From sequence record MK672798.1: a stretch of 59,463 nucleotides of DNA, one strand, 5' to 3'. Position 1 is the first letter of the stretch. Each line of letters starts with the position of its first letter. The notes beneath the pieces were generated by a model. That model searched no databases and had not been told where the DNA came from. It saw only the letters and a list, made by a program, of their open reading frames with translations. The stretch is from Escherichia phage Skure. Position numbers and translations under genes: made by a program. Positions 1 through 51,298 of the stretch are shown here, in pieces.

Positions 1-2
1 GT

Positions 3-18289: not shown

Positions 18290-18296
18290 TAAATAA

Positions 18297-18326
18297 TTAA
18301 CCCCTCGTTTGAGGGGTTAATTTTCA
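18297..18326. terminator. bidirectional intrinsic terminator between convergent tail tip and lipoprotein genes
   Basis: TTAACCCCTC-gttt-GAGGGGTTAA flanked by T-rich sequence on both strands. Confidence 0.65.
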
Positions 18327-18557
18327 ATAATCAATCACACAGTTTGAAGGTGAACCAATTCGTCGGTATTCATGATCAATCTCATGGCACCATTGCCCAG
18401 TCATTGGAAGCTTTTCGGTATCATAAATTAAAGAACCGTTACCATCACGGTCTAACGGTTTTGGGATAACGCCGGAATTAGGTTTACCAGTATTCAGACC
18501 GTTACCACATGCAGTGAGGGATAAAGTTAATGCCAGCATAATTAAAGCGCGTTTCAT
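18324..18557 (-). CDS. small lipoprotein, putative receptor-blocking superinfection exclusion protein (Cor/Llp-like)
   Basis: 77 aa; signal peptide MKRALIMLALTLSLTAC with lipobox; AAGGAG RBS; opposite strand between tail tip and tail fibre genes. Confidence 0.5.
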   Translation of the reverse strand: MKRALIMLALTLSLTACGNGLNTGKPNSGVIPKPLDRDGNGSLIYDTEKLPMTGQWCHEIDHEYRRIGSPSNCVIDY

Positions 18558-18627
18558 CAGGACTCCTTTGTGTTGTTGTGAATGTTCAATTCTAATATAC
18601 TTGTTGTGTTGAGTAAGTCAAATTAAT

Positions 18628-19254
18628 GTGGGAGATATTATGGCGACTCGTTTATACGGCGTTTTATTGGATGGTTTGAATAAACCTATTATCAACGCCA
18701 CAGTAGCACTTATTTCGAAAGGAAATACTCTTACCGTATTAAACGGAAGCGAGGCAATATTCCGTACAGACGCACAAGGTGCGTATAACGTAACAGTTCA
18801 GACTGGTCGTTATAAAGTTATTATTGGACCGCAAGGTATTGAGCCATATAAAGCTGGTGAGATTGTTATTTATTCAGATAGTAAAGAAGGTTCACTAAAT
18901 AACTATCTTACTAACTGGGTCCCGGAGGAATTAACTCCGGAAGTAATTGCACAAGTAAAAGAACTTGTGGCTAATTCTGAAGCCTATGCACTCCAAGCAG
19001 GTCGATCTGCGGCTTCTGCACAAGCGGACGCTACCGATGCGCGTAACAGCAAGGCAGCTTCTGCAACGTCTGCGGCGGAAGCATTGACTTATAAAAATGA
19101 CTCAAAGGCAAACGCAGATGCAGCTAAACAAGCCCAAGCTGGAGCGGCGGGATCTGCTAACACTGCAACACAAGCTGTAACCACAGTTACTCAGCTTAAA
19201 GCTGATGTTGCTCAGTTAAAACAGATACTCAAGCAATTAAAGACTCCGCGTTGA
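18628..19254 (+). CDS. tail fibre protein, N-terminal segment
   Basis: 208 aa; Ala-rich coiled-coil C-terminal part shares composition with the start of the next ORF, which overlaps in the -1 frame. Confidence 0.55.
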   Translation: MGDIMATRLYGVLLDGLNKPIINATVALISKGNTLTVLNGSEAIFRTDAQGAYNVTVQTGRYKVIIGPQGIEPYKAGEIVIYSDSKEGSLNNYLTNWVPEELTPEVIAQVKELVANSEAYALQAGRSAASAQADATDARNSKAASATSAAEALTYKNDSKANADAAKQAQAGAAGSANTATQAVTTVTQLKADVAQLKQILKQLKTPR

Positions 19255-20612
19255 CTGAAGTCGCAACAGCTAAAGCCGACGCAGTCAAAGAAGTTAATAC
19301 AGCTAAAACATCGGGTGTTGCTGCGGTCAACACCGCTAAGACGGAAGCAATTAATGCAATAACCCCGCTAAAAGACGCTGCCGCAGCTTCTGCAACTCAA
19401 GCGGGTGCTAGTGCAACCGAAGCGGTGAAACAAGCTACAGCAGCCGCAGGCAGCGCTGCAACCGCAGGGCAGAAAGCTACCCTAGCAACAGAGGAAGCTA
19501 ACCGCGCGAAAGGGTATGCGGATTCAATGGACCCCTCCAGCATAGCTAAACTTGATGCTGAAAATACTTTTACCAAAAAGCAGAAGTTTAACCTTAATGC
19601 AGAATTTGGGGCAAACGCTGGTAATCCTCTTTTAATCAAGAGTGTTAACCCAACAATTAAATTTGAAGAAGTTGACGCCACAGGTGATGTAACTGGCTAT
19701 GTTATGGTCATGGAGGGCGGTAACATACAACTCCAGGAGAACGATACTGGTAGCACTAATGTTGTCTTTAACTACAGCGCTTCAGCTAAAACAGTCAGGC
19801 TACCATCTCACAAGACTGGTTCATTTGGGGAAGTTGGTCAGCTCAGGACAACTGGGAGTTATAGTCAAGACAGCATATTAATTAGAGCGACGGGAGCGGG
19901 TTCGGCTTACACAGCTTATACCGGATCTTCCAGTCCATCTATTGTAAGATGGCGATCAGGGCTTGCTACCAGCGGGGGCTATGCATTCTACAACTACAAT
20001 GAGGATGGCACGTATCATTCTACTCCGGTAGCCATTGGGGGTGCGGGTACTGGGATTGCAATTGCGTTCTCTACCAATATTACCGGGCGAATTACAGCAG
20101 GTGGCGGGGACGCAGGAACCGACGCTGCAACGTTTAGATCCAATGGTTCAGCGTCTTATGTTTGTAACTTAGCATCAAATGGAGTTATTCGAACCCGTGT
20201 GGGATTTAGCGACACTGTAGGGAGCTATGGATTTCAAACATATACCACAGCAGGTTCGCCTGAGTATTGGATTAGACTTCCGAGTGCTGGCGGAACCCTT
20301 GCACTGCAAGGAACATCGGGCTTAGCATATAAAAAGGCGATCAATGACGGTAATCCTATTGATGCTTTAAACCGCATCATGGCACAACGCATGGTCACTT
20401 TTATTTATAAGGACGATAAACAAGAAAGAATAAGATTTGGTATTATTGCAGAAGAATCGGAGAAAGTCACACCACAATATGTGAAGCACAATGAAGAGAT
20501 TTATGAGGATGTATACGAGGATGTTATACGAGGATGTACCTGTAGAGGTTACTGTAGATCATACCGACCCCGAAACTGGTATTACAGAACAAATCAAAGA
20601 ACAACGCATTGA
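19251..20612 (+). CDS. tail fibre protein (central/distal segment), TTG start in ORF track
   Basis: 453 aa; Ala-rich N-terminus, Gly/Ser/Thr-rich body; its C-terminus begins an intramolecular-chaperone-like region (GIIAEESEKVTPQYV); frame 0 is open from 19206. Confidence 0.6.
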   Translation: MTEVATAKADAVKEVNTAKTSGVAAVNTAKTEAINAITPLKDAAAASATQAGASATEAVKQATAAAGSAATAGQKATLATEEANRAKGYADSMDPSSIAKLDAENTFTKKQKFNLNAEFGANAGNPLLIKSVNPTIKFEEVDATGDVTGYVMVMEGGNIQLQENDTGSTNVVFNYSASAKTVRLPSHKTGSFGEVGQLRTTGSYSQDSILIRATGAGSAYTAYTGSSSPSIVRWRSGLATSGGYAFYNYNEDGTYHSTPVAIGGAGTGIAIAFSTNITGRITAGGGDAGTDAATFRSNGSASYVCNLASNGVIRTRVGFSDTVGSYGFQTYTTAGSPEYWIRLPSAGGTLALQGTSGLAYKKAINDGNPIDALNRIMAQRMVTFIYKDDKQERIRFGIIAEESEKVTPQYVKHNEEIYEDVYEDVIRGCTCRGYCRSYRPRNWYYRTNQRTTH

Positions 20613-20805
20613 ACAGAAATTTATTCGTCGTGAAGTCGAGAAGAAAATTGTTTCACAGAAGACCCGAGACAGACCTTCAATTGATACTAACCCTATTGTT
20701 ATGGACTTGATGGGCGCCACTCAAGCGCTCAAAGCAGAAATTGATAGTTTGAAAGCGGAGATAGCTGCGTTGAAGGGCAATGTGGTTAATAACAATCTGC
20801 CATAA
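20491..20805 (+). CDS. C-terminal intramolecular chaperone-like segment of the tail fibre, in +1 frame relative to 19251-20612
   Basis: Ends ...ALKAEIDSLKAEIAALKG, resembling the tail-fibre intramolecular chaperone C-terminus; frame joins the upstream ORF if one T is removed from the tandem repeat at 20505-20540. Confidence 0.45.
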   Translation: MKRFMRMYTRMLYEDVPVEVTVDHTDPETGITEQIKEQRIEQKFIRREVEKKIVSQKTRDRPSIDTNPIVMDLMGATQALKAEIDSLKAEIAALKGNVVNNNLP

Positions 20806-20816
20806 CCACAATAATT

Positions 20817-20845
20817 AAGGAGCCAAACGGCTCCTTTTTTTTTTT
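20817..20845 (+). terminator. rho-independent terminator after tail fibre genes
   Basis: AAGGAGCC-aaac-GGCTCCTT followed by ten T. Confidence 0.75.
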
Positions 20846-21066
20846 AGTTGTCACTTTCTCACCTACCTGCGACCGCACCGCGTTTAAACATAACTCCCTC
20901 CTTTTGTTCAAGTCGTGACGTCCATTGCATTATAAGGGTACCAATGCCAGGCTATTTACAATTTATTTACACGCATATCATGGTAAATAATATGTTAACG
21001 AGTATACTTACCAGCGTAACCCGTTGGTTACATCCGCTTAACAAATCCATATATGGAGATTTTCCT

Positions 21067-24864: not shown

Positions 24865-26850
24865 TTAGGCGTATCCCATGTCTTCGAGATACTTCTCTGC
24901 TTTAGCTATATAAGCATCATAATCTATGTCGTCCGGTATTTTATCCGGTAGCGTCATAATCGGGACACCTCCCGCGCTACCAGCTACACGGTTGCCCGAG
25001 TTAGCATAGATTATTTCAGGTGTTTCTTCATTAGTGCTTAAGTACCAGCGTACAACCTTACCCAAAAATTCGCCATTCCATACCGCGCCGCCTTTTACCG
25101 CACGTAGGATAATGAATTTTCTAATATCGTTGCAATTGCGTATAGTACGAGAAACAGGCGTACCGTGGGCCAAACATTCACATACAGCTTCCATAATGAT
25201 CTCACCAGTACAGTTCTTTTGAAGACCTGTCTTTGCGAACCACCCTTTACGTTTAATTTCAACATTTCCTTCCTTGTCAGGTTCTTTTACTGCAACATAG
25301 TTATTGACGTTAGCACTGTACAGCTTGTCATAGTAGTTGGATTCCATTTCAAAACCTGTTACGGATTCCCACCACTTGATCATATTATCAACGAAGTCCT
25401 GCATGTGGTCTGGATACTTAACCACAATGCCGTCCGTGTTGGCTGAAATTACTTTAACACCATTCAATTCAAATGCTTCAATAAGCATCAATAGTGAAAG
25501 TTGTCCAGTTAATGTAACTTGTATCAATAATTGAGGCGCGTACAGTACAGACCACATGGACCCCAACTTACCAAACGATCCGTTGATAACGATCTTCAGC
25601 GTGTTGGCTGTGTTCTTGTCCCCGCTGTGCTTTGCAGCAATACGTCGGTCTACAATACTTTTATAAACACGAAGGAACGCTGGTCCTAACTGTTCTGGAT
25701 ATAATCCCTGATTAAGAATAATTGAAGGATAATAAGACGTTACGTCAATGTCCCGCTTTTTGATACCTGGCTCTTTACCGTGCCCAGCACACTCTTCGGA
25801 GCTATGTAAACCACCAATACCCATACGGTACACACCGTCCGCAATCTTGATCTCAAGACCTGTTAATGCAGGAGGTAAGCTAACACCACCGTTATCGCTA
25901 ACAATAAAGCGACAGTCCCGAACAATATCCAAAACACTATTCATCAAAGGTGTTTGAAAACGAATAAAGTCCGGTATGTTGTATGCATACTTTGTTCCAG
26001 GATAAACTTGCGGACGCTGTGGGCGCACGCCCGTTAACGCTTGAATTTCGTGCTTAATTACGTCTTCTGCAATCTGTGCATCGGAGCGTGAACGTAGATC
26101 CACACCGTATTCTTGCGACATAATTTCACGCAAGTGAATAGGCTCTTGCAATGCAATAAAACATTCTTCTGTCTGTACAAGGTCGTTAATACAGTACCAG
26201 CGCACAATAAGCATCTGGTCTTGCGTCAACATTGTATTAGGCTTGAACGGTAAATCCTGCATACGACGAGTATGTACACGTCCGCCGTATTGTTTCAAAC
26301 CGCCGGACCCAGGCAGCACTTCCATGATATCAATGTGGTTAACGTTCTGCATACGCTTGAGACGGTAACTTTTCAATACATCCGAAGGACGCCAGTCTTC
26401 AACGATTATCTTATCGGTCGCGTCTTTAAGCTGCGCATTAGAACAGCCGTTAAGCGCAAGCGTAGCAATGGGCATATCGTACCCGTTACCGTTAAAGCTT
26501 ACGATAAGGAAGTTTGTCATTACCCAGTTAAGTAATAAGCAATTCAAACTACAACCGTGATACATCTCGAAGTAGACAACTTTCTTAGTTCGCACTCCGC
26601 GAAATGCAATTAAAAAATAATTTGGATAACATTCTATATCATATACAAGCGGTTCGCGGTTAATCCATGCTTGAATAAGTTCGTCCTGTGTGTACAGGTT
26701 GTATTGGAAGTTCCGCGCTTCCTCAAGATTAGGCAAATAATCCGGGCGCTCCCAAGTGCGCTCCGGCGGTAAACGTTTAACCTTTTCTTTTTTTGCTTTT
26801 GGCTCAGGCGGTAAGTCCTGCCAAAAGAAACCAATAGCATCTGTCCGCAT
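24865..26850 (-). CDS. DNA polymerase, family B, with 3'-5' exonuclease domain
   Basis: Exo motifs YDIECY, FNGNGYD, YCIND; polymerase motifs DVTSYYPSI (A), KIVINGSFGKLG (B), ANTDGI (C); start ATG 26850 overlaps upstream stop (TAATG). Confidence 0.8.
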   Translation of the reverse strand: MRTDAIGFFWQDLPPEPKAKKEKVKRLPPERTWERPDYLPNLEEARNFQYNLYTQDELIQAWINREPLVYDIECYPNYFLIAFRGVRTKKVVYFEMYHGCSLNCLLLNWVMTNFLIVSFNGNGYDMPIATLALNGCSNAQLKDATDKIIVEDWRPSDVLKSYRLKRMQNVNHIDIMEVLPGSGGLKQYGGRVHTRRMQDLPFKPNTMLTQDQMLIVRWYCINDLVQTEECFIALQEPIHLREIMSQEYGVDLRSRSDAQIAEDVIKHEIQALTGVRPQRPQVYPGTKYAYNIPDFIRFQTPLMNSVLDIVRDCRFIVSDNGGVSLPPALTGLEIKIADGVYRMGIGGLHSSEECAGHGKEPGIKKRDIDVTSYYPSIILNQGLYPEQLGPAFLRVYKSIVDRRIAAKHSGDKNTANTLKIVINGSFGKLGSMWSVLYAPQLLIQVTLTGQLSLLMLIEAFELNGVKVISANTDGIVVKYPDHMQDFVDNMIKWWESVTGFEMESNYYDKLYSANVNNYVAVKEPDKEGNVEIKRKGWFAKTGLQKNCTGEIIMEAVCECLAHGTPVSRTIRNCNDIRKFIILRAVKGGAVWNGEFLGKVVRWYLSTNEETPEIIYANSGNRVAGSAGGVPIMTLPDKIPDDIDYDAYIAKAEKYLEDMGYA

Positions 26851-27803
26851 TAGACACGTTCTCCAATTAATACACCGCGAAGATTTTCCCCAAAGAATGC
26901 GCAAGGTTGCGGATATAAACTAAAGTCCGCAGTCTTAACCACATTTTCGAGTAATAACAGGATGTCGATATTGTAAACTCCCGTTATTGATCTGTCCTGC
27001 AATACGAAGCTTGCACCTTCTGCATCATCATAATGAGTACGCGCTAGACCGTTTTCAATATATACGCGAGGACGATCTTCCGCAAAAGGTTTGATTTTAT
27101 GCAAGCCCTCAAAAAGACCTGGATCAACAGGATGTGCATTGCATTGAACATTTAAAATACGACGTATATCAGGCCACTCCGCATCAATAAGCTGTGTTCG
27201 CAACCAGCGACCTTCCGGATAATGAAACGTCACATTGTTCTTGCTGACCTGAATATGTGTCGGGTTAGCTTTAATGCGCAGTATTTCTTTAATAGCAACA
27301 GACGGTATTATGCAGTCAATAGGGAATTGATTACCGAACCAATATTCCGCAATGGTGACGTTATTTGTAGCAAACAGGCTACCGTTATTAATCAGAATAC
27401 CGCAAGCCCACGGGCGGGATGCATCTGAGCCTACGAACGGAGCAACGGACTTCACACCGTGTACGAAGCGAGCACCGTCTATTTCGTATAAATCGCCTTC
27501 AGGGAATACGTGAGGTGTTTCCTTGTCAATACAGCGTATAGCAACACGAAACGGTCCGGACTTGATATTAAGTTTACCGTTAGCCATCATTGTTAACTGT
27601 ACGGTTTCGTCACAGTTTGAAATAGCTTTAATCATAGGCCCAGCTTCGGGTTTGCAATCAATATCCAGCTCAATAGGGCTACCCAGTGCAATAACACCGT
27701 TAAAGCCCTGTACCTGTCCATCACGGATAAGAAAGCTGGTAAGCCCTTCTACCAGTTCCTTTCGAGCGACGGAGCCTTGAACAAATTTAAGAGCGTCTAA
27801 CAT
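26850..27803 (-). CDS. hypothetical protein, possible polymerase processivity factor (sliding clamp-like)
   Basis: 317 aa, translationally coupled to the polymerase gene; function guessed from position and size only. Confidence 0.3.
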   Translation of the reverse strand: MLDALKFVQGSVARKELVEGLTSFLIRDGQVQGFNGVIALGSPIELDIDCKPEAGPMIKAISNCDETVQLTMMANGKLNIKSGPFRVAIRCIDKETPHVFPEGDLYEIDGARFVHGVKSVAPFVGSDASRPWACGILINNGSLFATNNVTIAEYWFGNQFPIDCIIPSVAIKEILRIKANPTHIQVSKNNVTFHYPEGRWLRTQLIDAEWPDIRRILNVQCNAHPVDPGLFEGLHKIKPFAEDRPRVYIENGLARTHYDDAEGASFVLQDRSITGVYNIDILLLLENVVKTADFSLYPQPCAFFGENLRGVLIGERV

Positions 27804-28030
27804 TAGCGATCCTCGATTGCTCTAATTGTGGTTAAATCTAATTCGCAGGTTGGAGGGTATCCATAAAGTCCCATTTGTTTTCCTTGTGCATTAAACCATG
27901 TACCTGACGGATCCTGCCATTGCTTAGGTGTCTTGTGGAGAAATACTACTCTGTTTTCACCGTAATAATTAATTCTTACGCCTGTGTGAGTATATTTACG
28001 TTTACCTTTTGGTCTTCTTAAGTTAGCCAT
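27803..28030 (-). CDS. hypothetical protein
   Basis: 75 aa between DpdA and the polymerase accessory gene. Confidence 0.4.
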   Translation of the reverse strand: MANLRRPKGKRKYTHTGVRINYYGENRVVFLHKTPKQWQDPSGTWFNAQGKQMGLYGYPPTCELDLTTIRAIEDR

Positions 28031-28950
28031 CAGAACAACTCCATTACACGATCACGGAATGTGCCGTCATGGGTGGCGTTAATGTTTGCAGCAATTACAC
28101 CATACGCCCATAAGTTGAAGGCAGCACGTGATTCATAGATTGTTGATAAACGTTCGTAAGTGAAACCGTTTTGCTCAAGGTATTTAAGGACAGCGTCTTG
28201 TTCAATTTCAGTTAATGTTGAAACATGCTTACCAAAATGATGGCGGTCCGGTGACTTATCTGAAACGCGCATTGGTCCCCACGGAGGGGTAACCACACTT
28301 CCAAACGCTGCCGCTTGTATCCAGGAGGATGAGTCGCAGCTATACCACGGGTAACGTTCCATAATGGTTGTGGACGTAATACCAAACGCATGAAGTTTAA
28401 TCTTAGCACGTCCGCTACCGTCGCAAATGTATTTGTCCCACATGCGGTCAAGCCAAGTCTTAAGCGTGTCCGTGGAACGCCCTACCATGCCCCCGATGGT
28501 GATATATTCGTAGTTCTTCATGTAGTATTCAAGATAGCGGAAGTCCTCCCCAAAGTGAAAGCAAGGTAACGGTTTAGCACCGCGTGCTTCCATTTCAAGC
28601 TGGTTACGGTAGGTTTGTAGCGGATCACCGATACCATCGAGCACCGATGCCATCACCGCACCATCTTCTACGCGAAGGATGTCTTTGTTACGCTTAATGT
28701 ATTCGCAGTATTCAACAATATCAATGTGAGCACCCAAAGAGTGCGCGGAGAATGCACCGGAGTCGAGAAACACTTTAGCCCCGTCCGCACGCATCTGATC
28801 AACATACTTTTGACGTCCAACGTAGTGGTATGATTCCAAAATATGGGGCAGATTGCGCGTGATATTTTTCTCATGCTCCGACAGCTTTTCATAACGCTGC
28901 TGCCCGGGCATATATCCGTTTGTGTAAACTGCTGCCATAAAAACGTTCAT
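28030..28950 (-). CDS. dpdA: DpdA-like DNA-guanine transglycosylase (TGT superfamily)
   Basis: 306 aa; KVFLDSGAFS resembles the TGT catalytic DSGGFQ region; embedded in preQ0 biosynthesis genes; GGAGGA RBS. Confidence 0.7.
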   Translation of the reverse strand: MNVFMAAVYTNGYMPGQQRYEKLSEHEKNITRNLPHILESYHYVGRQKYVDQMRADGAKVFLDSGAFSAHSLGAHIDIVEYCEYIKRNKDILRVEDGAVMASVLDGIGDPLQTYRNQLEMEARGAKPLPCFHFGEDFRYLEYYMKNYEYITIGGMVGRSTDTLKTWLDRMWDKYICDGSGRAKIKLHAFGITSTTIMERYPWYSCDSSSWIQAAAFGSVVTPPWGPMRVSDKSPDRHHFGKHVSTLTEIEQDAVLKYLEQNGFTYERLSTIYESRAAFNLWAYGVIAANINATHDGTFRDRVMELF

Positions 28951-29180
28951 TTTTGGAATGGTCCTCCAAACTGATCAATTAGTTCTAAGGTACGCCATGC
29001 ATTATTAAATGCTTCGTCCGCTTGATGTTTAGCGTCAATAAGCTGCTGCTTTAAGACATTTGTAGGAGCATCATTCTGTATCGCAGAGCAAGCATCCGCA
29101 GTACCTGCTTTAAGCTTGTAGAATGCAGCTTCTAAAATTAATTGTCTTGACATATTTCCCCCAATGACTAAAAAGCCCAT
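28947..29180 (-). CDS. hypothetical protein
   Basis: 77 aa; stop overlaps dpdA start (ATGA). Confidence 0.4.
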   Translation of the reverse strand: MGFLVIGGNMSRQLILEAAFYKLKAGTADACSAIQNDAPTNVLKQQLIDAKHQADEAFNNAWRTLELIDQFGGPFQK

Positions 29181-29224
29181 ACCAGTATTATGACCGATAT
29201 GGGCTTGATCTGTAAAGCTATCTA

Positions 29225-29815
29225 TTATTTACAAGCTTCAAGGAACTCCCGGCGCCATTCTTTACCAATATCGCTACCATGCTCCAGTTCTGTAGCGCCC
29301 CGGAACGCTTTGGTAATAGTAGAGCTTCCGCATACCTGCTTGACGCCACGACTTTCCATGCACATATGCTTGGCGTCAATATAAACACATACAGCTTTCG
29401 GGTTTAAATGCTCCTGAATAGCGTCTGCAATCTGGTTAGTAAGACGTTCCTGAACTTGCAGTCGACGACTAAAAGCATCCACAACGCGAGACAGCTTACT
29501 AAGCCCAACGATCTTCCCATTGGGGACATAACCCACAACAGCACGCCCGATAATAGGAGCCATGTGATGCTCACAATGACTGTATACAGGAATATCACGG
29601 ACAATGACCATTTCATCCGCACCTTCCGCACCATCTTCAAAGGTTTTAAACAATCCAGCGATATCTACATCGTAACCGCTGAACCACGTTGCATAAGCTT
29701 TCGCTACACGCTCCGGAGTTTCCATCAACCCATCACGCAGACCTTCTTCTGCTTTTACGCCTTCAATCTGACGCAGGATAGAAATAATATTCGCTTCGAG
29801 TATTGTTTTATTCAT
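29225..29815 (-). CDS. folE: GTP cyclohydrolase I
   Basis: 196 aa; canonical CEHH motif and VGYVPNGKIVGLSKL region. Confidence 0.9.
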   Translation of the reverse strand: MNKTILEANIISILRQIEGVKAEEGLRDGLMETPERVAKAYATWFSGYDVDIAGLFKTFEDGAEGADEMVIVRDIPVYSHCEHHMAPIIGRAVVGYVPNGKIVGLSKLSRVVDAFSRRLQVQERLTNQIADAIQEHLNPKAVCVYIDAKHMCMESRGVKQVCGSSTITKAFRGATELEHGSDIGKEWRREFLEACK

Positions 29816-29851
29816 GGTTTGCAGTTTCCTTGTTTGTTAATGTGGTCATAC

Positions 29852-30373
29852 TTACAGGCTATAATTTACGTGACATTTCGAAGTTTCTTCGATGGTGCAT
29901 TCTACAAGTTGAACACCATGCTCGTCAAGCAGTTGCGGCCCAATTACTTCAACCATGTATGCAGCTAAGTTTTCCGCAGTTGGGTTGAACGGTAGAGCTA
30001 CCAGTGAATCAACGAAATGTGAGTGCTCTTCTTCTGTAATATAACCTTCACTTTCATCCGCTAAAACATCACGAAGACCGATAAGTAAGTGATCTTTTTC
30101 CCAATGCAGGAACTTATGATCCCAGTTATCTTCCAGCCACTGGCAAAGCGTAGTTTTAACCACACTGAAGTCGATAACACGACCAACACTGTCCAGGCCT
30201 CCTTCTAGCGTCAGTTTACCGCACGTAATCTTTTTAACATCCGTGCGACCTTTCGGGGCAACCTTAAAGTGAAACTTATAGTTATGTCCGTGAAGATGTC
30301 GACATTTGCTTTCATGTCCTACAACACGGTGCCCAGCGCAAATTTCATGTGAACGGATCACTGTATAGCTCAT
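29852..30373 (-). CDS. queD: 6-carboxy-5,6,7,8-tetrahydropterin synthase
   Basis: 173 aa; CxxxHGH zinc motif (CRHLHGHNY); AGGAGA RBS. Confidence 0.85.
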   Translation of the reverse strand: MSYTVIRSHEICAGHRVVGHESKCRHLHGHNYKFHFKVAPKGRTDVKKITCGKLTLEGGLDSVGRVIDFSVVKTTLCQWLEDNWDHKFLHWEKDHLLIGLRDVLADESEGYITEEEHSHFVDSLVALPFNPTAENLAAYMVEVIGPQLLDEHGVQLVECTIEETSKCHVNYSL

Positions 30374-30374
30374 T

Positions 30375-30698
30375 TTATTCTCCTAACTCTGCTTTAACCG
30401 CTGCTTCGATATCTTCAAGGGCTTTAAGTTCATGAGTATAGTAACTCATATCATCTGGTTCAGTCGACTCTTCGTGCATGGTTTCTAATGCTTGACGCCA
30501 TATAGCTATGTGACCTTTAATCATACATGCAAGCGAACTATGACCTTTGTAAACTGCTTTGTCCACTTGCATCTGTGGGTTGAATTGCACAATAGCATCT
30601 TCAACAAGATCAATCAGATCATATGCTTGTTGAGGGACTGGGTTTCCAAATGCTTTATGAGCTATACCCATTCTTGCTAAATTACTTATCCTATTCAT
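30375..30698 (-). CDS. hypothetical protein inside deazaguanine cluster
   Basis: 107 aa, AAGGAG RBS, no recognisable motif. Confidence 0.45.
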   Translation of the reverse strand: MNRISNLARMGIAHKAFGNPVPQQAYDLIDLVEDAIVQFNPQMQVDKAVYKGHSSLACMIKGHIAIWRQALETMHEESTEPDDMSYYTHELKALEDIEAAVKAELGE

Positions 30699-31264
30699 TT
30701 CGATACTCCTTTCGATTGTTCAATTTCTAACGCACGCTGTGCGGACGCAATAATGTCTTTTAAGTCTTCTACCAGACTTTTATGCCCGCGCTCACCGGGT
30801 TGCAATGCTTTTTTGATAAGGTGTTGCAGAGCTGGGTTCGTTGTTTCCCAGGCGGTAAGAACATCATACACATCTACAACAATTGAAGCAACATGCCCGT
30901 CAATATCTTTACCGCGGATAAGGCGCTGGTATTTGGTCAGACGGTTATCTTCAGGATAGCTCTGGTAACGCGCTTCTGGAACCGTCATTGCAATTTCCAT
31001 CACTTCTTTAAACTTGTGCTCGGTTATTGGGTCTTTGCTGGTCATTTGTTGATTAATTGGCTCTTCAATGATGTAACGCCAAGCAGTCACATCAAATTGT
31101 GTGGTCATTGGGATTGGCGAATATGACCATATCCAACCAGCTCCGCGATGGTTTCTTAAAACGTTACCATTTCTTAGTTTCACTTCAAAATGGTCATTCT
31201 GAAGATAGACGGGCATCCCTTTGCCGTCGTGTTTGTGCCAAATTTTATCCAGATTATCTTTCAT
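30695..31264 (-). CDS. hypothetical protein inside deazaguanine cluster
   Basis: Start placed at internal ATG (MKDNLDK) one nt after upstream stop; about 189 aa; no recognisable motif. Confidence 0.45.
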   Translation of the reverse strand: MKDNLDKIWHKHDGKGMPVYLQNDHFEVKLRNGNVLRNHRGAGWIWSYSPIPMTTQFDVTAWRYIIEEPINQQMTSKDPITEHKFKEVMEIAMTVPEARYQSYPEDNRLTKYQRLIRGKDIDGHVASIVVDVYDVLTAWETTNPALQHLIKKALQPGERGHKSLVEDLKDIIASAQRALEIEQSKGVSK

Positions 31265-31265
31265 T

Positions 31266-31745
31266 TTATGCTCTCGCTGTACGTGAATGAACTTCGTAAA
31301 CAACCCAAAGGATAGCTGATGCTGTGAACTTACTTAAGCTCATTGCTACCATCGATCCCGGATTTACAATACCAATAATACTTAAGAATACAATGGAGTC
31401 AATTGGTACTGCGACCAAAGAGCTGATAAATACTCGTTGATGGAAAGGCTTCTTGGTGACCGTGTATACCACATAGTCAGCAAACTCGCTAAGTGCAAAT
31501 GACGCAACGGATGCAACTACAACCGCAGGATCCCCGAACACCCAGCTAAGAATGCAACCGACAATCATTGCAGGGATAACGCCTTTGCCAGCGTTACGCT
31601 GTGCGTAGTCACGCAGGACGAAGATAATACCTACGAAGAAAGCCATCATGGGTACTACGCCAAGCGGCGTGTTAAGTATTGGAAGGTAGGAAAAGCCCAG
31701 GTTTACGAACGTAATTGCAGCCAGGTAAGCAACGATAAATTTCAT
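31266..31745 (-). CDS. integral membrane protein, putative queuosine-precursor (preQ0/preQ1) transporter of the YhhQ/COG1738 type
   Basis: 159 aa, about 5 TM helices; sits between queC and queD; assigned by context, not by motif. Confidence 0.4.
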   Translation of the reverse strand: MKFIVAYLAAITFVNLGFSYLPILNTPLGVVPMMAFFVGIIFVLRDYAQRNAGKGVIPAMIVGCILSWVFGDPAVVVASVASFALSEFADYVVYTVTKKPFHQRVFISSLVAVPIDSIVFLSIIGIVNPGSMVAMSLSKFTASAILWVVYEVHSRTARA

Positions 31746-31865
31746 ACTTTTGTTCTCCAGTTTTAACAGCGTTATTCGCTGGTTGTTGGGTTTAAAAGCT
31801 TTAGTAGTATAGTTGGGTTACCGCACCCTAAACAATGCGCTAGCGGTGCGGTTTTCGCGGTAAGA

Positions 31866-32588
31866 TCAAACGTGTTTGCTGTAAGCGTTATCCATAAATT
31901 CAGTGTAACCCTTAGCACGGAGTTTACACGCTGGGCATTCCCCGCAACCGTATCCCCAGTCATGCAAAGTTCGACGAATGCCGTTATAGCAGGTGTGCGA
32001 CTGTTCAATAACTGTGGTTAAGAAACCAACCTTGTCCGCCAGCTCAAACGTTTCAGCTTTGTTTAAACGCATAAGTGGGGTAACAAAATGAATATCTGTT
32101 TCATATCCAACGTTTAAGGTAGCTTCAAGCAAATCAACAAACTGCTGACGGCAATCCGGATAACCGCTATAGTCCGTTTCACATACGCCTGTAACCACAT
32201 ATCGGGCTCCGACCTTCTGCGCGTAAGCGTGCGCGGTTGTCAGAAAAAGCGCATTACGATTTGGCACAAAACTTGCCGGAAGGTTATTGTGCTGTTCGTG
32301 ATGCTCGTTGACATCACCTTCGTTCCCGATCAAAGCGCTATTACCAATCTGTTTCAAAGCTGGTAATTCGAAGACAACAAACGGGACATTGTGCTCTTTA
32401 CAAATTTGATTAGCACAAGCCAGCTCAATGTTATGACGTTGACCGTATGCAAAACCAATAGCGTAAACTTTATCATAGTTATTAAGCGCAAGACCTAGAC
32501 AAGTCACGCTGTCCTGACCGCCAGACAGGACCACAACGGCGGAGTTATGATTTTTTACAGGGAACACCAGTTTATCTAATTTATTCAT
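31866..32588 (-). CDS. queC: 7-cyano-7-deazaguanine synthase
   Basis: 240 aa; PP-loop VVLSGGQDS; C-terminal zinc ribbon CxxCxxC (GCGECPACK); no fused amidotransferase domain. Confidence 0.9.
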   Translation of the reverse strand: MNKLDKLVFPVKNHNSAVVVLSGGQDSVTCLGLALNNYDKVYAIGFAYGQRHNIELACANQICKEHNVPFVVFELPALKQIGNSALIGNEGDVNEHHEQHNNLPASFVPNRNALFLTTAHAYAQKVGARYVVTGVCETDYSGYPDCRQQFVDLLEATLNVGYETDIHFVTPLMRLNKAETFELADKVGFLTTVIEQSHTCYNGIRRTLHDWGYGCGECPACKLRAKGYTEFMDNAYSKHV

Positions 32589-32589
32589 T

Positions 32590-32787
32590 TTAGAAACCTT
32601 TAAGGCTAATATTAAGGTTAACGACTACTTGTTCAACTACATCTTCACAGGTCACCTGACGCTTGTGAATTTCAAGTTCCGAATATATTTTCTTTGAAGC
32701 TGCGCGACATAGGGCGTCATTCAATTCGTCTTGTAGACGTTGAATCTTGTGCATAAGCACTACAGTTTCTTCATTCATTTTCCACAC
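32590..32787 (-). CDS. hypothetical small protein inside deazaguanine cluster
   Basis: 65 aa between queE and queC. Confidence 0.35.
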   Translation of the reverse strand: MWKMNEETVVLMHKIQRLQDELNDALCRAASKKIYSELEIHKRQVTCEDVVEQVVVNLNISLKGF

Positions 32788-32983
32788 CTTTAATATAACA
32801 AGGGTTGATTGTTACATTTGACATTACAATTGGATGATTACGTGCTCCAATTGTACTAACGTGATTAATATCTAATTCTACATGCACACCCTGCATAGTA
32901 GCATGGGCAATTGCAGAATTAAGTTTTTCTACCAGCTCAGTAATCATTTCCTGATGCTGTTTTGCTTCTTCTAAAGTGATCAT
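32771..32983 (-). CDS. hypothetical small protein inside deazaguanine cluster
   Basis: 70 aa; stop overlaps next start. Confidence 0.35.
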   Translation of the reverse strand: MITLEEAKQHQEMITELVEKLNSAIAHATMQGVHVELDINHVSTIGARNHPIVMSNVTINPCYIKGVENE

Positions 32984-33690
32984 TATTCCACTCCGATATA
33001 TTTGTGAACCTGAAGCTGCAACGTGTAACCGTGTTTCATACAGCTTTGGACAACGGCTTGGATATTACTGTGGTTAAGGTCTTCATCCTGCTCGTCCATT
33101 GGCTGTAAATATATCTTACCCTTGAACCCCTTCGGAGGTCTAGCGATAAATGGCGTAGCTTGATGATCTAATGCTTGAAGAGGTAAACCATCTTCCACGT
33201 TTACACAGCACGCTTTAAGTACATATTTAAATGCATTAGCGCGGCGCAGCACAGAAGGATGAATCTTTGAGGTCTTAGGACTACATACAATCACAGGTAA
33301 CTGGGAAAAGTTCTTAGGTAAAGGCATAGACCCATTAGTTTCAATTTGCACCAAATAGCCGCGCGATAACAGTTGTTCAATAAACGGGTTAATTTGCTGA
33401 CGGAACGGTTCACCCCCAGTGATAACCACAAGTGAGGTGCTATTGCCGGATTCCAGCTTACGGCTTTCGATTAAACGCATAATATCGACAATATGATAAA
33501 GACTACGACCAACAGTATAATCCGTATCACAGCCAGGACATTGCAGGTTGCACCCAGCAAGACGCACAAATACAGCAGGTTGGCCGCAGAATGGACCTTC
33601 ACCCTGAATGGTAGAGAATACCGAATGCACGTCTAAATACATATCGTTTTCTTTAGAACGGGGCTCGGGAGCTTGTTGATTAATATTCAT
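32983..33690 (-). CDS. queE: 7-carboxy-7-deazaguanine synthase (radical SAM)
   Basis: 235 aa; LAGCNLQCPGCDTDYT cluster-binding motif typical of QueE. Confidence 0.85.
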   Translation of the reverse strand: MNINQQAPEPRSKENDMYLDVHSVFSTIQGEGPFCGQPAVFVRLAGCNLQCPGCDTDYTVGRSLYHIVDIMRLIESRKLESGNSTSLVVITGGEPFRQQINPFIEQLLSRGYLVQIETNGSMPLPKNFSQLPVIVCSPKTSKIHPSVLRRANAFKYVLKACCVNVEDGLPLQALDHQATPFIARPPKGFKGKIYLQPMDEQDEDLNHSNIQAVVQSCMKHGYTLQLQVHKYIGVE

Positions 33691-33699
33691 CTTAAATCC

Positions 33700-33735
33700 T
33701 CTAGTGAAAAAGAAAGCGCCTCATTGGGCGCTTTC
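33700..33735 (-). terminator. rho-independent terminator (- strand) downstream of the Ala-rich protein gene
   Basis: Plus-strand GAAAGCGCC-tcattg-GGCGCTTTC; on - strand followed by TTTTTCAC. Confidence 0.5.
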
Positions 33736-33759
33736 ATTATAACGTGATATGTTTTGATA

Positions 33760-34563
33760 TTACAAGCCGTTCAGGGCTTCCGGTACTGGCATAGGTACGC
33801 GACCAGTCACACCATTAAACTTCTTCCAACGTGCATACTGAGTTTTAACAGTATCTTCGTTCAGACCGTGACGACCTGCCAGATTCAGAACATAAGAGAT
33901 CGGAGCAGGCTGACCCAGCGTAGCGCTAATCTGGTCCATCAGAGCCCAGGCACGACCGCAGGAAGTTTCCGGTTGCGGACGACGAACACCATTCTGTTCA
34001 GGCATACGGTTCGCTTCTTTCGCTTTTTCACGTTCAGCTTTTTCGCGGGCTTTTTCAGCAGCCTTTTCAGCCTGTTTAGCAGCGCGGATCTTGTCTTTGA
34101 AGCCTTTGATAGACGAATCCAGTTCGTCGACCATGCTCTGAGCAGCAGTTACTGCACCGGACAGATCTTCACCTTTGGATTTTTTAACAACTGCTTTCAG
34201 ATCTTTCAGAGCATTCTTTAAATGCTTCAGCTGTTCGGAACCCTTAGATTCTGCTTCCGTAATCTGTTCAACAGTGCTTTCATCGGTAATACCGGATAAA
34301 GCAAACTTCACGGTTTCAACTGCCTGGGAAAGAGCGGTAAATTTATTTTCCGCTTCAGTACGAATTTCAGCTTGTTTCTTTTCAGCGGCAGCTTTTTTCT
34401 CTGCTTCTTTTTTCTCTTTTGCTACGCGTGCAGCTTCAGCGGCAGCGGCTTTTTTAGCTTCTGCGTCGTTAGCAGTAGCTTCTTTCTTTGCAGGCTTAGC
34501 AGATTTTGCAGCGGCAGCAGCGGCTGCGGCAGCAGCGGCTTTCTTATCTTCAATATTACTCAT
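33760..34563 (-). CDS. Ala/Lys/Glu-rich protein with poly-Ala tract and conserved C-terminal domain (function unknown)
   Basis: Start at ATG 34563 (GGAG RBS) rather than GTG 34572; 12-residue poly-Ala; C-terminus ...QYARWKKFNG paralogous to the protein at 50611-51225. Confidence 0.5.
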   Translation of the reverse strand: MSNIEDKKAAAAAAAAAAAKSAKPAKKEATANDAEAKKAAAAEAARVAKEKKEAEKKAAAEKKQAEIRTEAENKFTALSQAVETVKFALSGITDESTVEQITEAESKGSEQLKHLKNALKDLKAVVKKSKGEDLSGAVTAAQSMVDELDSSIKGFKDKIRAAKQAEKAAEKAREKAEREKAKEANRMPEQNGVRRPQPETSCGRAWALMDQISATLGQPAPISYVLNLAGRHGLNEDTVKTQYARWKKFNGVTGRVPMPVPEALNGL

Positions 34564-34690
34564 TTTCTTCACTCCGAATTATTATGGGTTCGTTTGTTAC
34601 CAACGGGGTTAAATGTACCAAAGGATTTTGTGACACGCAACCCCTTACATAAACATTTTTAAAAATATTTTTGATCAGGGTTAGAACTTA

Positions 34691-43909: not shown

Positions 43910-44431
43910 TTAACCATTGTTGGAAAATTCACCGTGCAAAATTGCACGCATTTCCTTCAGCCATTGTGTCGCTTTATTTTTACCTTCATCATTAAATGGA
44001 AAATACCTATAATAGTTTTTACCATTCAGTCGAATCTGCGCTAACCAACTATTGCTGGTTTTAGATTTGTTATGTGTAAGACCTTTAACCCCGCTTGAAT
44101 TGTTACTGTATTTAAATCTATTATGTGCGTTCTGACTAGAATCGCAAGCCCTCAAATTGTATTGAGCATTATTCAGTTTATTGCAGTCGTCATGATCAAT
44201 TTCTTCAGGTTCTTCATCATAGAGCATTTTCCAGATTATGCGGTGGACAAAATATGAAATGCCATCAATCTTTGTTCTAAGATGACCAGTTGTATGAACC
44301 CATCCAACGCAAGATCCCTTTGGAGCTCTGTTGCTTCTATGGATCTTCCATGTTAATGCACCCGTCGACGGATCATAGTCAAATAGCTCCAGAAGCTGCT
44401 CTTGTGTAAGGTGTATAGGCTTCGCTTTCAT
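43910..44431 (-). CDS. HNH homing endonuclease with AP2-type DNA-binding domain
   Basis: 173 aa; HRIIW...EIDHDDCNKLNNAQYNLRACDSSQNAHN (HNH) followed by SGVKGLTHNKSKTSNSWLAQIRLNGKNYYRYF (AP2-like). Confidence 0.75.
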   Translation of the reverse strand: MKAKPIHLTQEQLLELFDYDPSTGALTWKIHRSNRAPKGSCVGWVHTTGHLRTKIDGISYFVHRIIWKMLYDEEPEEIDHDDCNKLNNAQYNLRACDSSQNAHNRFKYSNNSSGVKGLTHNKSKTSNSWLAQIRLNGKNYYRYFPFNDEGKNKATQWLKEMRAILHGEFSNNG

Positions 44432-51225: not shown

Positions 51226-51298
51226 GGTATAGCTCCTTTCATTAATATTAGTTTGCTTATTACTGCCCACCGTAATGATGAGCAGTGTATAAGAAAAC

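What the first reader, a model, noticed from the sequence alone, without database searches (positions are those of the whole stretch)
27803..33690. Phage-encoded 7-deazaguanine DNA modification cluster (FolE, QueD, QueE, QueC, DpdA) without a recognisable amidotransferase
The full preQ0 pathway is present with textbook motifs: FolE (CEHH), QueD (CxxxHGH), QueE (CNLQCPGCDTDYT) and QueC (SGGQDS plus CxxCxxC). A TGT-superfamily DpdA-like transglycosylase and a YhhQ-type membrane protein sit in the same cluster. QueC is a standard 240 aa protein with no fused glutaminase domain, and I see no ArcS or QueF. The simplest prediction is that genomic guanine is replaced by 7-cyano-7-deazaguanine (dPreQ0) rather than archaeosine-type dG+. 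A different, unrecognised tailoring step remains possible.
Basis: partly seen in the sequence, partly recalled or inferred. Interest (0 to 1): 0.8.

Follow-up and report, generated by a model that had tools for sequence, protein, structure and literature searches.

The report
Known phage dPreQ0 DNA-modification gene cluster
This is the gene set a coliphage uses to swap about a quarter of the guanines in its DNA for 7-cyano-7-deazaguanine and so escape host restriction enzymes; its core enzymes are identical to those of phage CAjan, where this was already shown by experiment, so the finding is correct but not new.

Summary

- **What the window is:** a complete Seuratvirus (Queuovirinae) genome, permuted by 112 bp relative to Escherichia phage CAjan.
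- **Match to CAjan:** the region 27803-33690 is 99.0% identical in nucleotides to CAjan 28621-34508. DpdA, FolE and QueC are 100% identical in amino acids. QueD, QueE and the YhhQ-like protein each differ by one residue.
- **Published experiments on CAjan:** LC-MS/MS found dPreQ0 on about 32% of G, with dADG, dG+, dPreQ1 and dQ all below 6 per 10^6 nt. Deleting dpdA abolished the modification. Deleting folE or queC brought it below the Nanopore calling threshold; LC-MS/MS of the queC mutant showed 12-fold less dPreQ0. Deleting yhhQ had no effect. The modified motifs are GA and GGC.
- **Checks made here:**
  - All four quoted motifs are present.
  - FolE and QueC pass curated family cut-offs.
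  - QueD passes Pfam PTPS.
  - QueE hits only QueE models, all below their cut-offs.
  - DpdA is invisible to Pfam and to PDB sequence search, but a pLDDT 96.5 model matches only tRNA-guanine transglycosylases.
  - No GATase, QueF, ArcS, DpdC, methyltransferase or formyltransferase domain was found in the non-structural genes.
- **Consistency:** 28.3% of the window's G lie in GA or GGC contexts, in line with the 23-32% measured for CAjan.

Novelty: already known. Interest: low.

The parts
32983..33690 (-). queE, 7-carboxy-7-deazaguanine synthase (radical SAM), 235 aa
   Evidence: The CNLQCPGC cluster motif is present. The best NCBIfam hits are all QueE models, E 6e-28 to 2e-20, below their cut-offs. 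PHROG 2076 scores 7e-69. The protein differs from CAjan QueE by 1 aa. The role is inferred; queE was not deleted in CAjan.
32771..32983 (-). 70-aa ORF of unknown function
   Evidence: It matches PHROG 26258 and is labelled 'radical SAM domain-containing' in CAjan. It has a single Cys and no Pfam hit. It is 100% identical to CAjan.
32590..32778 (-). 62-aa ORF of unknown function
   Evidence: It matches PHROG 24420, unknown function, and is 100% identical to CAjan.
31866..32588 (-). queC, 7-cyano-7-deazaguanine (preQ0) synthase, 240 aa, no glutaminase fusion
   Evidence: PF06508 scores 251 bits and TIGR00364 243.3 bits, above its 150.3 cut-off. SGGQDS and CGECPAC are present. It is 100% identical to CAjan QueC. 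The CAjan queC deletion lowers dPreQ0 12-fold (PMC7544227).
31266..31745 (-). YhhQ-like membrane protein (putative preQ0 or queuosine-precursor transporter), 159 aa
   Evidence: Hits are sub-threshold: Vut_1 E 1.6e-5 and TIGR00697 E 1.5e-4. It differs from CAjan by 1 aa. The CAjan yhhQ deletion keeps wild-type modification (PMC7544227).
30695..31264 (-). 189-aa ORF of unknown function (ATG start as annotated in CAjan; the longest ORF starts at TTG 31303)
   Evidence: It matches PHROG 23361 and has no Pfam or PDB hit. Its C-terminal 60-80 aa occur in 703 phage records, most outside Queuovirinae, so it is not pathway-specific.
30375..30698 (-). 107-aa ORF of unknown function
   Evidence: It matches PHROG 24659 and is 100% identical to CAjan.
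29852..30373 (-). queD, 6-carboxy-tetrahydropterin synthase, 173 aa
   Evidence: PF01242 scores 73.5 bits, above its 22.4 cut-off. TIGR03367 is the best NCBIfam hit but falls below its cut-off. CRHLHGH is present. It differs from CAjan by 1 aa.
29225..29815 (-). folE, GTP cyclohydrolase I, 196 aa
   Evidence: PF01227 scores 211 bits and TIGR00063 195.9 bits, above its 181.6 cut-off. CEHH is present. It is 100% identical to CAjan. In the CAjan folE deletion no site reaches the Nanopore calling threshold; a weak residual signal remains, attributed to host preQ0 (PMC7544227).
28947..29153 (-). 68-aa ORF of unknown function (the longest ORF extends to 29180)
   Evidence: It matches PHROG 20065 and differs from CAjan by 2 aa.
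28030..28950 (-). dpdA (DpdA1 subfamily), DNA-guanine transglycosylase that exchanges G for preQ0 in DNA, 306 aa
   Evidence: It is 100% identical to CAjan DpdA. The published Cas9 spacer against CAjan dpdA is found at window 28443-28472. PHROG 887 scores 8e-96. The AlphaFold model has pLDDT 96.5. The top 50 Foldseek PDB matches are all tRNA-guanine transglycosylases; the best is arcTGT 1j2b, E 8.7e-8. D206 is invariant and D63 nearly invariant in 68 diverse homologues. The CAjan dpdA deletion has no modification (PMC6884629).
27803..28030 (-). 75-aa ORF of unknown function at the downstream end of the cluster
   Evidence: It matches PHROG 38388 and is 100% identical to CAjan.

Best explanation
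The locus is the Seuratvirus-type 7-deazaguanine DNA-modification module, effectively the CAjan module.

**Proposed mechanism.**
1. During infection, FolE, QueD, QueE and QueC convert GTP through H2NTP, CPH4 and CDG to the free base preQ0 (7-cyano-7-deazaguanine).
2. DpdA is a stand-alone TIM-barrel transglycosylase of the TGT superfamily. It lacks the tRNA-binding C-terminal domains and has no CxCxxC motif of the kind that binds zinc in tRNA TGTs.
3. After replication, DpdA excises guanine from phage DNA at GA and GGC sites and inserts preQ0. It probably acts through a covalent Asp206-deoxyribose intermediate, with Asp63 deprotonating the incoming base.
4. The result is dPreQ0 at roughly a quarter to a third of all G. 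This blocks many type I and type II restriction enzymes.
5. No further tailoring occurs, because QueC is not fused to a glutaminase and no ArcS, QueF or DpdC is encoded.
6. The YhhQ-like membrane protein may import or salvage preQ0 but is not required.

**Shown by published experiment on identical proteins:** the identity of the base, the need for dpdA, folE and queC, the two motifs, and the restriction protection.

**Inferred:** the QueD and QueE steps, the catalytic residues, and the transfer of all this to this particular isolate.
For: - **Identity to CAjan.** The cluster is 99.0% identical in nucleotides to CAjan over 100% of its length. DpdA, FolE and QueC are 100% identical in amino acids; QueD, QueE and YhhQ each differ by 1 aa.
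- **CAjan LC-MS/MS.** dPreQ0 is on about 32% of G, the other 7-deazaguanines are below 6 per 10^6 nt, and the dpdA mutant is unmodified and fully restrictable (PMC6884629).
- **CAjan genetics and motifs.** Nanopore and LC-MS/MS give GA and GGC as the motifs. folE, queC and dpdA are required and yhhQ is dispensable (PMC7544227).
- **Family models.** Results are.
- **DpdA fold.** The model has pLDDT 96.5 and all top-50 PDB matches are TGTs. The best PDB sequence hit of the diverse profile is bacterial DpdA 7ui4, aligned over the GGMV...HGFG...SxDS region at E 0.08.
- **Conserved pocket and catalytic residues.** D63, S64, D105, H132, G153, G154, F189 and D206 are conserved; F67 is invariant among the 31 close homologues.
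- **Independent support for G217.** G217 is nearly invariant. A G217E change in the DpdA of phage HK243 abolished dPreQ0 incorporation (bioRxiv 10.1101/2025.10.29.685425); correspondence of the numbering with the window's DpdA was assumed, not checked.
- **No tailoring enzymes.** No GATase, QueF, ArcS, DpdC, methyltransferase or formyltransferase domain was found in the 59 non-structural ORFs.
- **Site density.** 28.3% of the window's G (63 per 10^3 nt) lie in GA or GGC contexts, against 44-71 per 10^3 nt measured in CAjan.
- **Genus-level statement.** The BASEL study describes dPreQ0 as the signature of the genus Seuratvirus.
Against: - Nothing measured here bears on this isolate's DNA itself; the conclusion is transferred from CAjan.
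- About 15-20% of the window is diverged from or absent in CAjan and contains many small ORFs without any family hit. An unknown tailoring function encoded there cannot be formally excluded.
- The structural module (113-23246) was not scanned against Pfam.
- QueE, QueD and YhhQ do not reach the NCBIfam equivalog cut-offs.
- The CAjan LC-MS/MS was targeted to five nucleosides.
Confidence: 0.93

Rival explanations
1. An unrecognised tailoring enzyme converts preQ0 or dPreQ0 further (for example to dADG, dG+, dPreQ1 or a new derivative), so the final base is not dPreQ0. The enzyme would be one of the small ORFs in the cluster or in the parts of the genome not shared with CAjan.
For: - Six ORFs of unknown function are interleaved in the cluster.
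- Several kb of the window have no CAjan counterpart, and many ORFs there have no family hit.
- Published LC-MS/MS on CAjan was targeted to five nucleosides.
Against: - Five of the six intra-cluster ORFs are 100% identical to CAjan's and the sixth (68 aa) differs by 2 aa. CAjan contains dPreQ0 at a level that accounts for nearly all GA and GGC sites.
- No GATase, QueF, ArcS, DpdC, methyltransferase or formyltransferase domain was found in the non-structural genes.
- The recognisable content of the non-CAjan segments is HNH homing endonucleases.
- The conserved C-terminal domain of the 189-aa ORF occurs in 703 phage records, most outside Queuovirinae.
Confidence: 0.03
2. The 306-aa protein is a tRNA-guanine transglycosylase, as many database records label it ('queuine tRNA-ribosyltransferase'). 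On this reading the cluster manipulates queuosine in host tRNA rather than modifying DNA.
For: - GenBank and PHROG names say so.
- The closest solved folds are tRNA TGTs.
Against: - The identical CAjan protein is required for dPreQ0 in DNA.
- The protein is 306 aa, against 576 aa for arcTGT, and lacks arcTGT's C-terminal tRNA-binding domains. It has no CxCxxC motif of the kind that, from memory, binds zinc in tRNA TGTs; its only cysteines are C82, C130, C176 and C205 (sequence).
- It does not hit Pfam TGT at all.
- Its only NCBIfam hit and its best PDB sequence hit are DNA-acting DpdA.
- The phage carries no tRNA genes.
Confidence: 0.02
3. The cluster is present but inactive in this isolate, so its DNA carries ordinary guanine.
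For: None beyond the fact that this isolate's DNA was not analysed.
Against: - All twelve ORFs are intact. Eight are identical to those of the active CAjan cluster, and the single-residue changes in QueD, QueE and YhhQ lie outside the quoted motifs.
- The catalytic residues are conserved.
Confidence: 0.02

Closest known systems
Escherichia phage CAjan (Seuratvirus cajan) 7-deazaguanine cluster, KP064094 28621-34508
   Same: Gene order, strand and content are the same. Nucleotide identity is 99.0%. DpdA, FolE, QueC and five small ORFs are identical in amino acids; QueD, QueE and YhhQ differ by 1 aa each. The experimentally defined product is dPreQ0 at GA and GGC.
   Different: The surrounding genome is a mosaic. 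The structural genes are about 94% identical to CAjan and closer to phage SLUR25. The tail-fibre, primase and early regions have diverged, and the HNH endonuclease content differs.
Enterobacteria phage 9g and other Nonagvirus phages (dG+, 2'-deoxyarchaeosine)
   Same: They share FolE, QueD, QueE and DpdA1, post-replicative base exchange on DNA, partial replacement of G (about 25%) and a related siphovirus backbone.
   Different: Nonagvirus encodes Gat-QueC, a glutamine amidotransferase fused to QueC, and makes dG+. The window has a plain 240-aa QueC that passes the TIGR00364 equivalog cut-off. It is only about 29% identical to the QueC homologue of Escherichia phage HdK1 and 28-30% identical to QueC moieties annotated as amidotransferase fusions. 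I take HdK1 to be a Nonagvirus from memory.
Bacterial Dpd restriction-modification system (DpdA/DpdB/DpdC, Salmonella Montevideo; PDB 7ui4)
   Same: A TGT-fold DNA-guanine transglycosylase inserts preQ0 into DNA. 7ui4 is the best PDB sequence hit of the diverse profile, aligned across the catalytic SxDS region.
   Different: Similarity is weak: NCBIfam DpdA scores 16.9 bits against a cut-off of 200. The phage encodes no recognisable DpdC. A DpdB partner was not specifically searched for; per the literature the bacterial enzyme works in complex with DpdB. Bacterial modification is below 0.1% of G and proceeds to dADG (PMC10516641).
Archaeosine tRNA-guanine transglycosylase (arcTGT, PDB 1j2b/1iq8)
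   Same: It is the best structural match (E 8.7e-8, probability 1.00, 17% identity). It has the same TIM-barrel catalytic domain, uses preQ0 as substrate and has the two catalytic aspartates (PMC7544227).
   Different: arcTGT is 576 aa with C-terminal tRNA-binding domains and acts on tRNA G15. The phage protein is the 306-aa catalytic domain only and acts on DNA.

Membership tests
GTP cyclohydrolase I (FolE) | Matches the family model above the curated cut-off and carries the zinc-binding CEHH motif | tested here: met
   PF01227 scores 211.2 bits (cut-off 27). TIGR00063 scores 195.9 (cut-off 181.6). 'SHCEHH' is in the translation.
QueD (6-carboxytetrahydropterin synthase) | PTPS fold model above cut-off, with the CxxxHGH motif | tested here: met
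   PF01242 scores 73.5 bits (cut-off 22.4). 'CRHLHGH' is present.
QueD (6-carboxytetrahydropterin synthase) | Reaches the NCBIfam QueD equivalog cut-off (TIGR03367) | tested here: not met
   It scores 59.1 bits against 89.25. This is the best NCBIfam hit, but the match is interrupted by an insertion: residues 7-144 cover 87 model positions.
QueE (7-carboxy-7-deazaguanine synthase, radical SAM) | Radical-SAM CxxxCxxC cluster motif | tested here: met
   'CNLQCPGC' is present. Fer4_12 scores 22.5 bits (cut-off 22).
QueE (7-carboxy-7-deazaguanine synthase, radical SAM) | Reaches a QueE equivalog cut-off | tested here: not met
   The five best NCBIfam hits are all QueE models (97.9, 95.5, 75.8, 74.5 and 73.6 bits) against cut-offs of 200-300. 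PHROG 2076 'QueE-like' scores 7e-69. It is a divergent phage QueE.
QueC (preQ0 synthase) | Equivalog model above cut-off, PP-loop SGGxDS, and a C-terminal Cys cluster | tested here: met
   TIGR00364 scores 243.3 (cut-off 150.3) and PF06508 251.4 bits. 'SGGQDS' and 'CGECPAC' are present.
Gat-QueC (dG+ synthase of Nonagvirus) | Glutamine amidotransferase domain fused to QueC | tested here: not met
   The protein is 240 aa and the QueC model covers residues 17-231. No GATase hit was found and no GATase domain elsewhere in the non-structural genes.
TGT superfamily (tRNA/DNA-guanine transglycosylases) | TGT-type TIM-barrel fold | tested here: met
   The AlphaFold model has pLDDT 96.5 and pTM 0.92. 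All top-50 Foldseek PDB matches are TGTs, 123 matches have E<=0.001, and the best is 1j2b_A at E 8.7e-8.
TGT superfamily (tRNA/DNA-guanine transglycosylases) | Sequence match to the Pfam TGT model (PF01702) | tested here: not met
   No Pfam family was found even at E<=10. Neither phmmer nor profile searches gave a significant PDB hit.
Phage DpdA1 (DNA preQ0 transglycosylase) | Catalytic Asp nucleophile and second Asp, plus the preQ0/guanine pocket residues defined for CAjan DpdA (D206, D63, S64, F67, D105, H132, G153, G154, F189) | tested here: met
   All are present in the sequence and invariant in 31 close homologues. Among 68 diverse homologues D206 is invariant, and D63, S64, D105, H132, G153, G154 and F189 are at least 90% conserved. 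The residue list comes from PMC7544227.
Phage DpdA1 (DNA preQ0 transglycosylase) | Required for 7-deazaguanine in phage DNA | not testable with these tools
   This was shown for the 100% identical CAjan protein by CRISPR-Cas9 deletion and LC-MS/MS (PMC6884629; identity).
Bacterial DpdA (bDpdA, NF041059 equivalog) | Reaches the equivalog cut-off | tested here: not met
   It scores 16.9 bits against 200, E 0.0022, over residues 147-212 only.
YhhQ/Vut_1 queuosine-precursor transporter | Family model above cut-off | tested here: inconclusive
   PF02592 scores 25.7 bits against 27.2. TIGR00697 scores 21.6 against 50.95. Only part of each profile is matched, and at 159 aa the protein is shorter than the 201-position TIGR00697 model.
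Tailoring enzymes ArcS, QueF, DpdC, DpdM, DpdN, DpdL | Presence of any corresponding domain in the genome | tested here: not met
   The Pfam scan of 59 non-structural ORFs (23276-59392) found helicase, nuclease, ligase, RNase H, dUTPase, primase, HNH, SLOG, holin and DUF domains (DUF669, DUF7173, DUF3987). The weak QueF hits lie on FolE itself, which shares the T-fold. Structural genes were not scanned.

The most novel reading that the evidence does not exclude
One or more of the six conserved ORFs of unknown function interleaved with the pathway genes (75, 68, 107, 189, 62 and 70 aa) might be an accessory factor of the modification system. Such a factor could help one DpdA to recognise two unrelated motifs (GA and GGC), or protect dPreQ0-DNA from host glycosylases that target it.
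Probability: 0.07. Interest if true: 0.5.

Novelty: already known. Interest (0 to 1): 0.1.

Why it matters
7-deazaguanine DNA modification is an established phage counter-defence. It protects against type I and type II restriction and in turn is targeted by host glycosylases such as Dag1.

For this window the value is only annotational. The phage can be labelled a dPreQ0-modified Seuratvirus, with about 7,500 predicted modified sites. Its DNA should resist enzymes such as EcoRV and HaeIII, and Nanopore base-calling quality may suffer.

Nothing here opens a new question beyond those already stated in the literature: how a single DpdA reads both GA and GGC, and what the small cluster ORFs do.

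Tried and rejected
1. **Pfam TGT membership of DpdA.** No hit was found even at E<=10. PDB sequence searches with the single protein, a shallow profile and a diverse profile gave nothing significant.
2. **First AlphaFold run.** An alignment of 31 homologues at 68-75% identity gave a poor model (pLDDT 60). Its Foldseek matches were non-significant, although arcTGT ranked first. I discarded it in favour of the model from 68 diverse homologues.
3. **Hidden tailoring enzymes.** ORFs concatenated into ten pseudo-proteins were scanned against Pfam and none was found. The structural genes 113-23246 were left out.
4. **The 189-aa ORF as a pathway-specific factor.** I rejected this because its conserved C-terminal domain occurs in 703 phage records, most outside Queuovirinae, and the full-length protein is only 53.5% identical in a sampled relative, phage SLUR26.
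5. **The 'radical SAM' label of the 70-aa ORF.** I rejected it: the protein has one Cys and no family hit.
6. **RNA elements.** Rfam and tRNA scans looking for preQ1 riboswitches or phage tRNAs found none.
7. **Promoters and terminators.** Counts in the cluster do not exceed those in shuffled sequence.

Full report
**Observation**

The region 27803-33690 carries twelve consecutive minus-strand ORFs.
- FolE: 'SHCEHH'
- QueD: 'CRHLHGH'
- QueE: 'CNLQCPGCDTDYT'
- QueC: 'SGGQDS' and 'CGECPAC'

Profile searches support the assignments to different degrees:
- FolE is above the curated cut-offs (PF01227 211 bits; TIGR00063 195.9 against 181.6).
- QueC is above the curated cut-offs (PF06508 251 bits; TIGR00364 243.3 against 150.3).
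- QueD passes Pfam PTPS (73.5 against 22.4) but not the NCBIfam QueD equivalog (59.1 against 89.25).
- QueE's five best NCBIfam hits are all QueE models (E 6e-28 to 2e-20), all below their cut-offs. PHROG 2076 'QueE-like' scores 7e-69.
- The 159-aa membrane protein has only sub-threshold hits to Vut_1/YhhQ models.
- The 306-aa protein has no Pfam hit at all, even at E<=10. It has a marginal hit to the bacterial DpdA equivalog (16.9 bits, E 0.0022) and a strong hit to PHROG 887 (8e-96).

**What the window is**

Megablast of the region against 50,697 phage records gives Escherichia phage CAjan (KP064094/NC_028776, Seuratvirus cajan, Queuovirinae). Coverage is 100% and identity 99.0%. About thirty other Seuratvirus genomes follow at 90-93%.

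Aligning the whole window to CAjan shows a complete genome of the same architecture:
- It is permuted by 112 bp: window 1-112 equals CAjan 59559-59670.
- Identity is 94-98% over most of the length.
- The tail-fibre, primase and early regions have diverged.

The structural half is closer to phage SLUR25. The window is therefore a mosaic Seuratvirus isolate, not CAjan itself.

Within the cluster, DpdA, FolE, QueC and five small ORFs are 100% identical in amino acids to CAjan's. QueD, QueE and YhhQ each differ at one residue, and the 68-aa ORF at two. The Cas9 spacer published for knocking out CAjan dpdA is present unchanged at window 28443-28472.

**What is already known about this locus**

Hutinet et al. 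2019 (PMC6884629):
- They measured dPreQ0 at 70,628 per 10^6 nt, about 32% of G. dADG, dG+, dPreQ1 and dQ were all below 6 per 10^6 nt.
- A CRISPR-Cas9 dpdA deletion lost all modification and became fully restrictable.

Kot et al. 2020 (PMC7544227):
- In folE, queC and dpdA deletions no site reached the Nanopore modification threshold. LC-MS/MS of the queC mutant showed a 12-fold reduction, the residue coming from host preQ0.
- A yhhQ deletion had no effect.
- The modification maps to GA and GGC.
- CAjan DpdA was homology-modelled on the catalytic domain of arcTGT, with Asp206 as nucleophile and Asp63 as the second catalytic residue.

Other literature:
- The BASEL study describes dPreQ0 as the signature of the genus Seuratvirus and dG+ (via Gat-QueC) as that of Nonagvirus.
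- Hutinet et al. 2023 describes 9g's DpdA as DpdA1 and calls CAjan a related phage; it treats all such modifications as post-replicative.

**Independent checks made here**

*DpdA fold.*
- A first model from 31 close homologues was poor (pLDDT 60) and gave only non-significant matches.
- After collecting representatives at 50% clustering (6,466 proteins with E<=0.001), I aligned 68 diverse homologues. The new model reached pLDDT 96.5 and pTM 0.92.
- All top-50 Foldseek PDB matches of that model are tRNA-guanine transglycosylases. The best is arcTGT 1j2b_A (E 8.7e-8, probability 1.00), and 123 matches have E<=0.001.
- The best PDB sequence hit of the diverse profile is the bacterial DNA-guanine transglycosylase 7ui4. 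It is not significant (E 0.08) but aligns across GGMV...HGFG...SxDS.

*DpdA residues.*
- D206 is invariant across the 68 diverse homologues. D63, S64, D105, H132, G153, G154 and F189 are at least 90% conserved; F67 is invariant among the 31 close homologues.
- G217 is also nearly invariant. A G217E change in the DpdA of phage HK243 abolished dPreQ0 incorporation in a 2025 preprint; I assumed, but did not check, that the numbering corresponds.
- The protein is 306 aa against 576 aa for arcTGT, so it corresponds to the catalytic domain only. It has no CxCxxC motif of the kind that, from memory, binds zinc in tRNA TGTs.

*Tailoring enzymes.*
- A Pfam scan of 59 non-structural ORFs found helicase, nuclease, AAA_24, ligase, RNase H, dUTPase, primase-associated, HNH, SLOG and holin domains, plus DUF669, DUF7173 and DUF3987.
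- It found no GATase, QueF, ArcS, DpdC, methyltransferase or formyltransferase domain.
- The weak QueF hits lie on FolE, which shares the T-fold.
- The window's QueC is only about 29% identical to the QueC homologue of Escherichia phage HdK1 (a Nonagvirus, from memory) and 28-30% to amidotransferase-annotated fusions. It is a canonical QueC, not a truncated fusion.

*Consistency of site density.*
- 7,505 G, or 28.3% of all G on both strands (63 per 10^3 nt), lie in GA or GGC contexts.
- CAjan measurements are 44-71 per 10^3 nt, or 23-32% of G.

**Mechanism**

1. FolE, QueD, QueE and QueC make free preQ0 from GTP.
2. DpdA exchanges guanine for preQ0 in double-stranded phage DNA after replication, at GA and GGC sites.
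3. dPreQ0 blocks many restriction enzymes.

The steps shown by experiment, on identical proteins in CAjan, are the identity of the base, the requirement for dpdA, folE and queC, the motifs, and the protection. The QueD and QueE steps rest on homology and on the established pathway. The catalytic chemistry is inferred from TGT enzymes. Transfer to this isolate is inferred from sequence identity.

**Rivals**

- A hidden tailoring step is very unlikely. Five of the six intra-cluster unknown ORFs are identical to CAjan's and the sixth differs by 2 aa; CAjan's dPreQ0 level accounts for nearly all motif sites. The 189-aa ORF's conserved domain occurs in 703 phage records, most outside Queuovirinae.
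- A tRNA-directed role, as the database label 'queuine tRNA-ribosyltransferase' implies, is contradicted by the knock-out data, the domain architecture and the lack of tRNA genes.
- Inactivity of the cluster is contradicted by its intact ORFs, eight of the twelve identical to those of the active CAjan cluster.

**Verdict**

Novelty is 'already known' and interest is low. The only residual open points are the ones the field already lists: how one DpdA recognises two motifs, and the function of the small interleaved ORFs.

Noticed in passing
window 1-112 and 113-59463: The window is a whole phage genome, circularly permuted by 112 bp relative to the CAjan record (window 1-112 equals CAjan 59559-59670). 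It is a mosaic. The deazaguanine and replication region is 97-99% identical to CAjan, while the structural module is about 94% identical to CAjan and closer to phage SLUR25 (95.7% over 100%).
   Followed up: partly
window 43910-44431 (-), 52965-53456 (+), and junction 50627-50638: Two HNH_3 endonuclease ORFs sit in segments that have no counterpart in CAjan. One is a 543-bp insertion between the dUTPase and the PDDEXK nuclease. Conversely, the CAjan homing endonuclease gene (CAjan 50970-51452) is missing from the window, which has only a 10-bp junction there. Homing-endonuclease content therefore differs between near-identical phages.
   Followed up: partly
window 17316-20977: The tail-fibre or receptor-binding region is only 87% identical to CAjan over 17405-19185 and has no match over about 19186-20976. 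This suggests a different host-recognition module.
   Followed up: no
window 24865-26904 (-) and 26850-27803 (-): The protein annotated as DNA polymerase B in CAjan (679 aa) has no significant Pfam hit; the best is DNA_pol_B_exo2 at E 0.03. PolB-like motifs are nevertheless visible in the sequence (SYYPSII, KIVINGSFGKLG, NTDG). The adjacent 317-aa 'beta subunit' has only a sub-threshold DNA_pol3_beta_2 hit (E 1.7e-4). This looks like a very divergent replicase pair sitting directly next to dpdA.
   Followed up: no
window 55410-55802 (+): A 130-aa protein carries a YAcAr domain (YspA/cpYpsA-related SLOG family, PF10686, E 5e-17). CAjan annotates it only as 'putative DNA binding protein'.
   Followed up: no
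window 32771-32983 (-): This 70-aa ORF is labelled 'radical SAM domain-containing protein' in CAjan and PHROG 26258. It has a single cysteine and no family hit, so the label looks like an annotation carry-over from neighbouring queE.
   Followed up: yes
window 30695-31264 (-): The C-terminal 60-80 residues of the 189-aa cluster ORF form a domain found in 703 phage records, including many Salmonella and Escherichia siphoviruses. It appears in proteins variously labelled hypothetical, 'terminase ATPase subunit' or 'ligase/BRCA1'. Its function is unknown and it is not in Pfam.
   Followed up: partly
proteins P0122, P0128, P0137, P0146, P0154, P0184 (not in the window): Several distant DpdA homologues are 535-640 aa because of an insertion of roughly 315 aa between 'YPW(Y/H)' and 'SVDSSSW', two residues before the catalytic Asp206. 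In the two sequences read (P0122, P0128) the insertion starts with Cys, ends with Asn followed by Ser, and contains LAGLIDADG-like motifs. It looks like an intein at the DpdA active site. Pfam does not recognise it.
   Followed up: partly
window 33712-33765 (-): A strong terminator-like hairpin (GAAAGCGCC-CAATGA-GGCGCTTTC followed by TTTTT) lies about 20 bp upstream of the queE start. A promoter-like site (TTGTAA-18-TATAAT) lies just before it. This may mark a transcription-unit boundary at the head of the cluster, but site counts in the region do not exceed those in shuffled sequence.
   Followed up: no
window 33760-34572 (-): A 270-aa Ala/Lys/Glu-rich protein with an 11-residue poly-Ala run lies directly upstream of queE. 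CAjan annotates it as 'FtrA domain-containing', but no Pfam family was found here.
   Followed up: no
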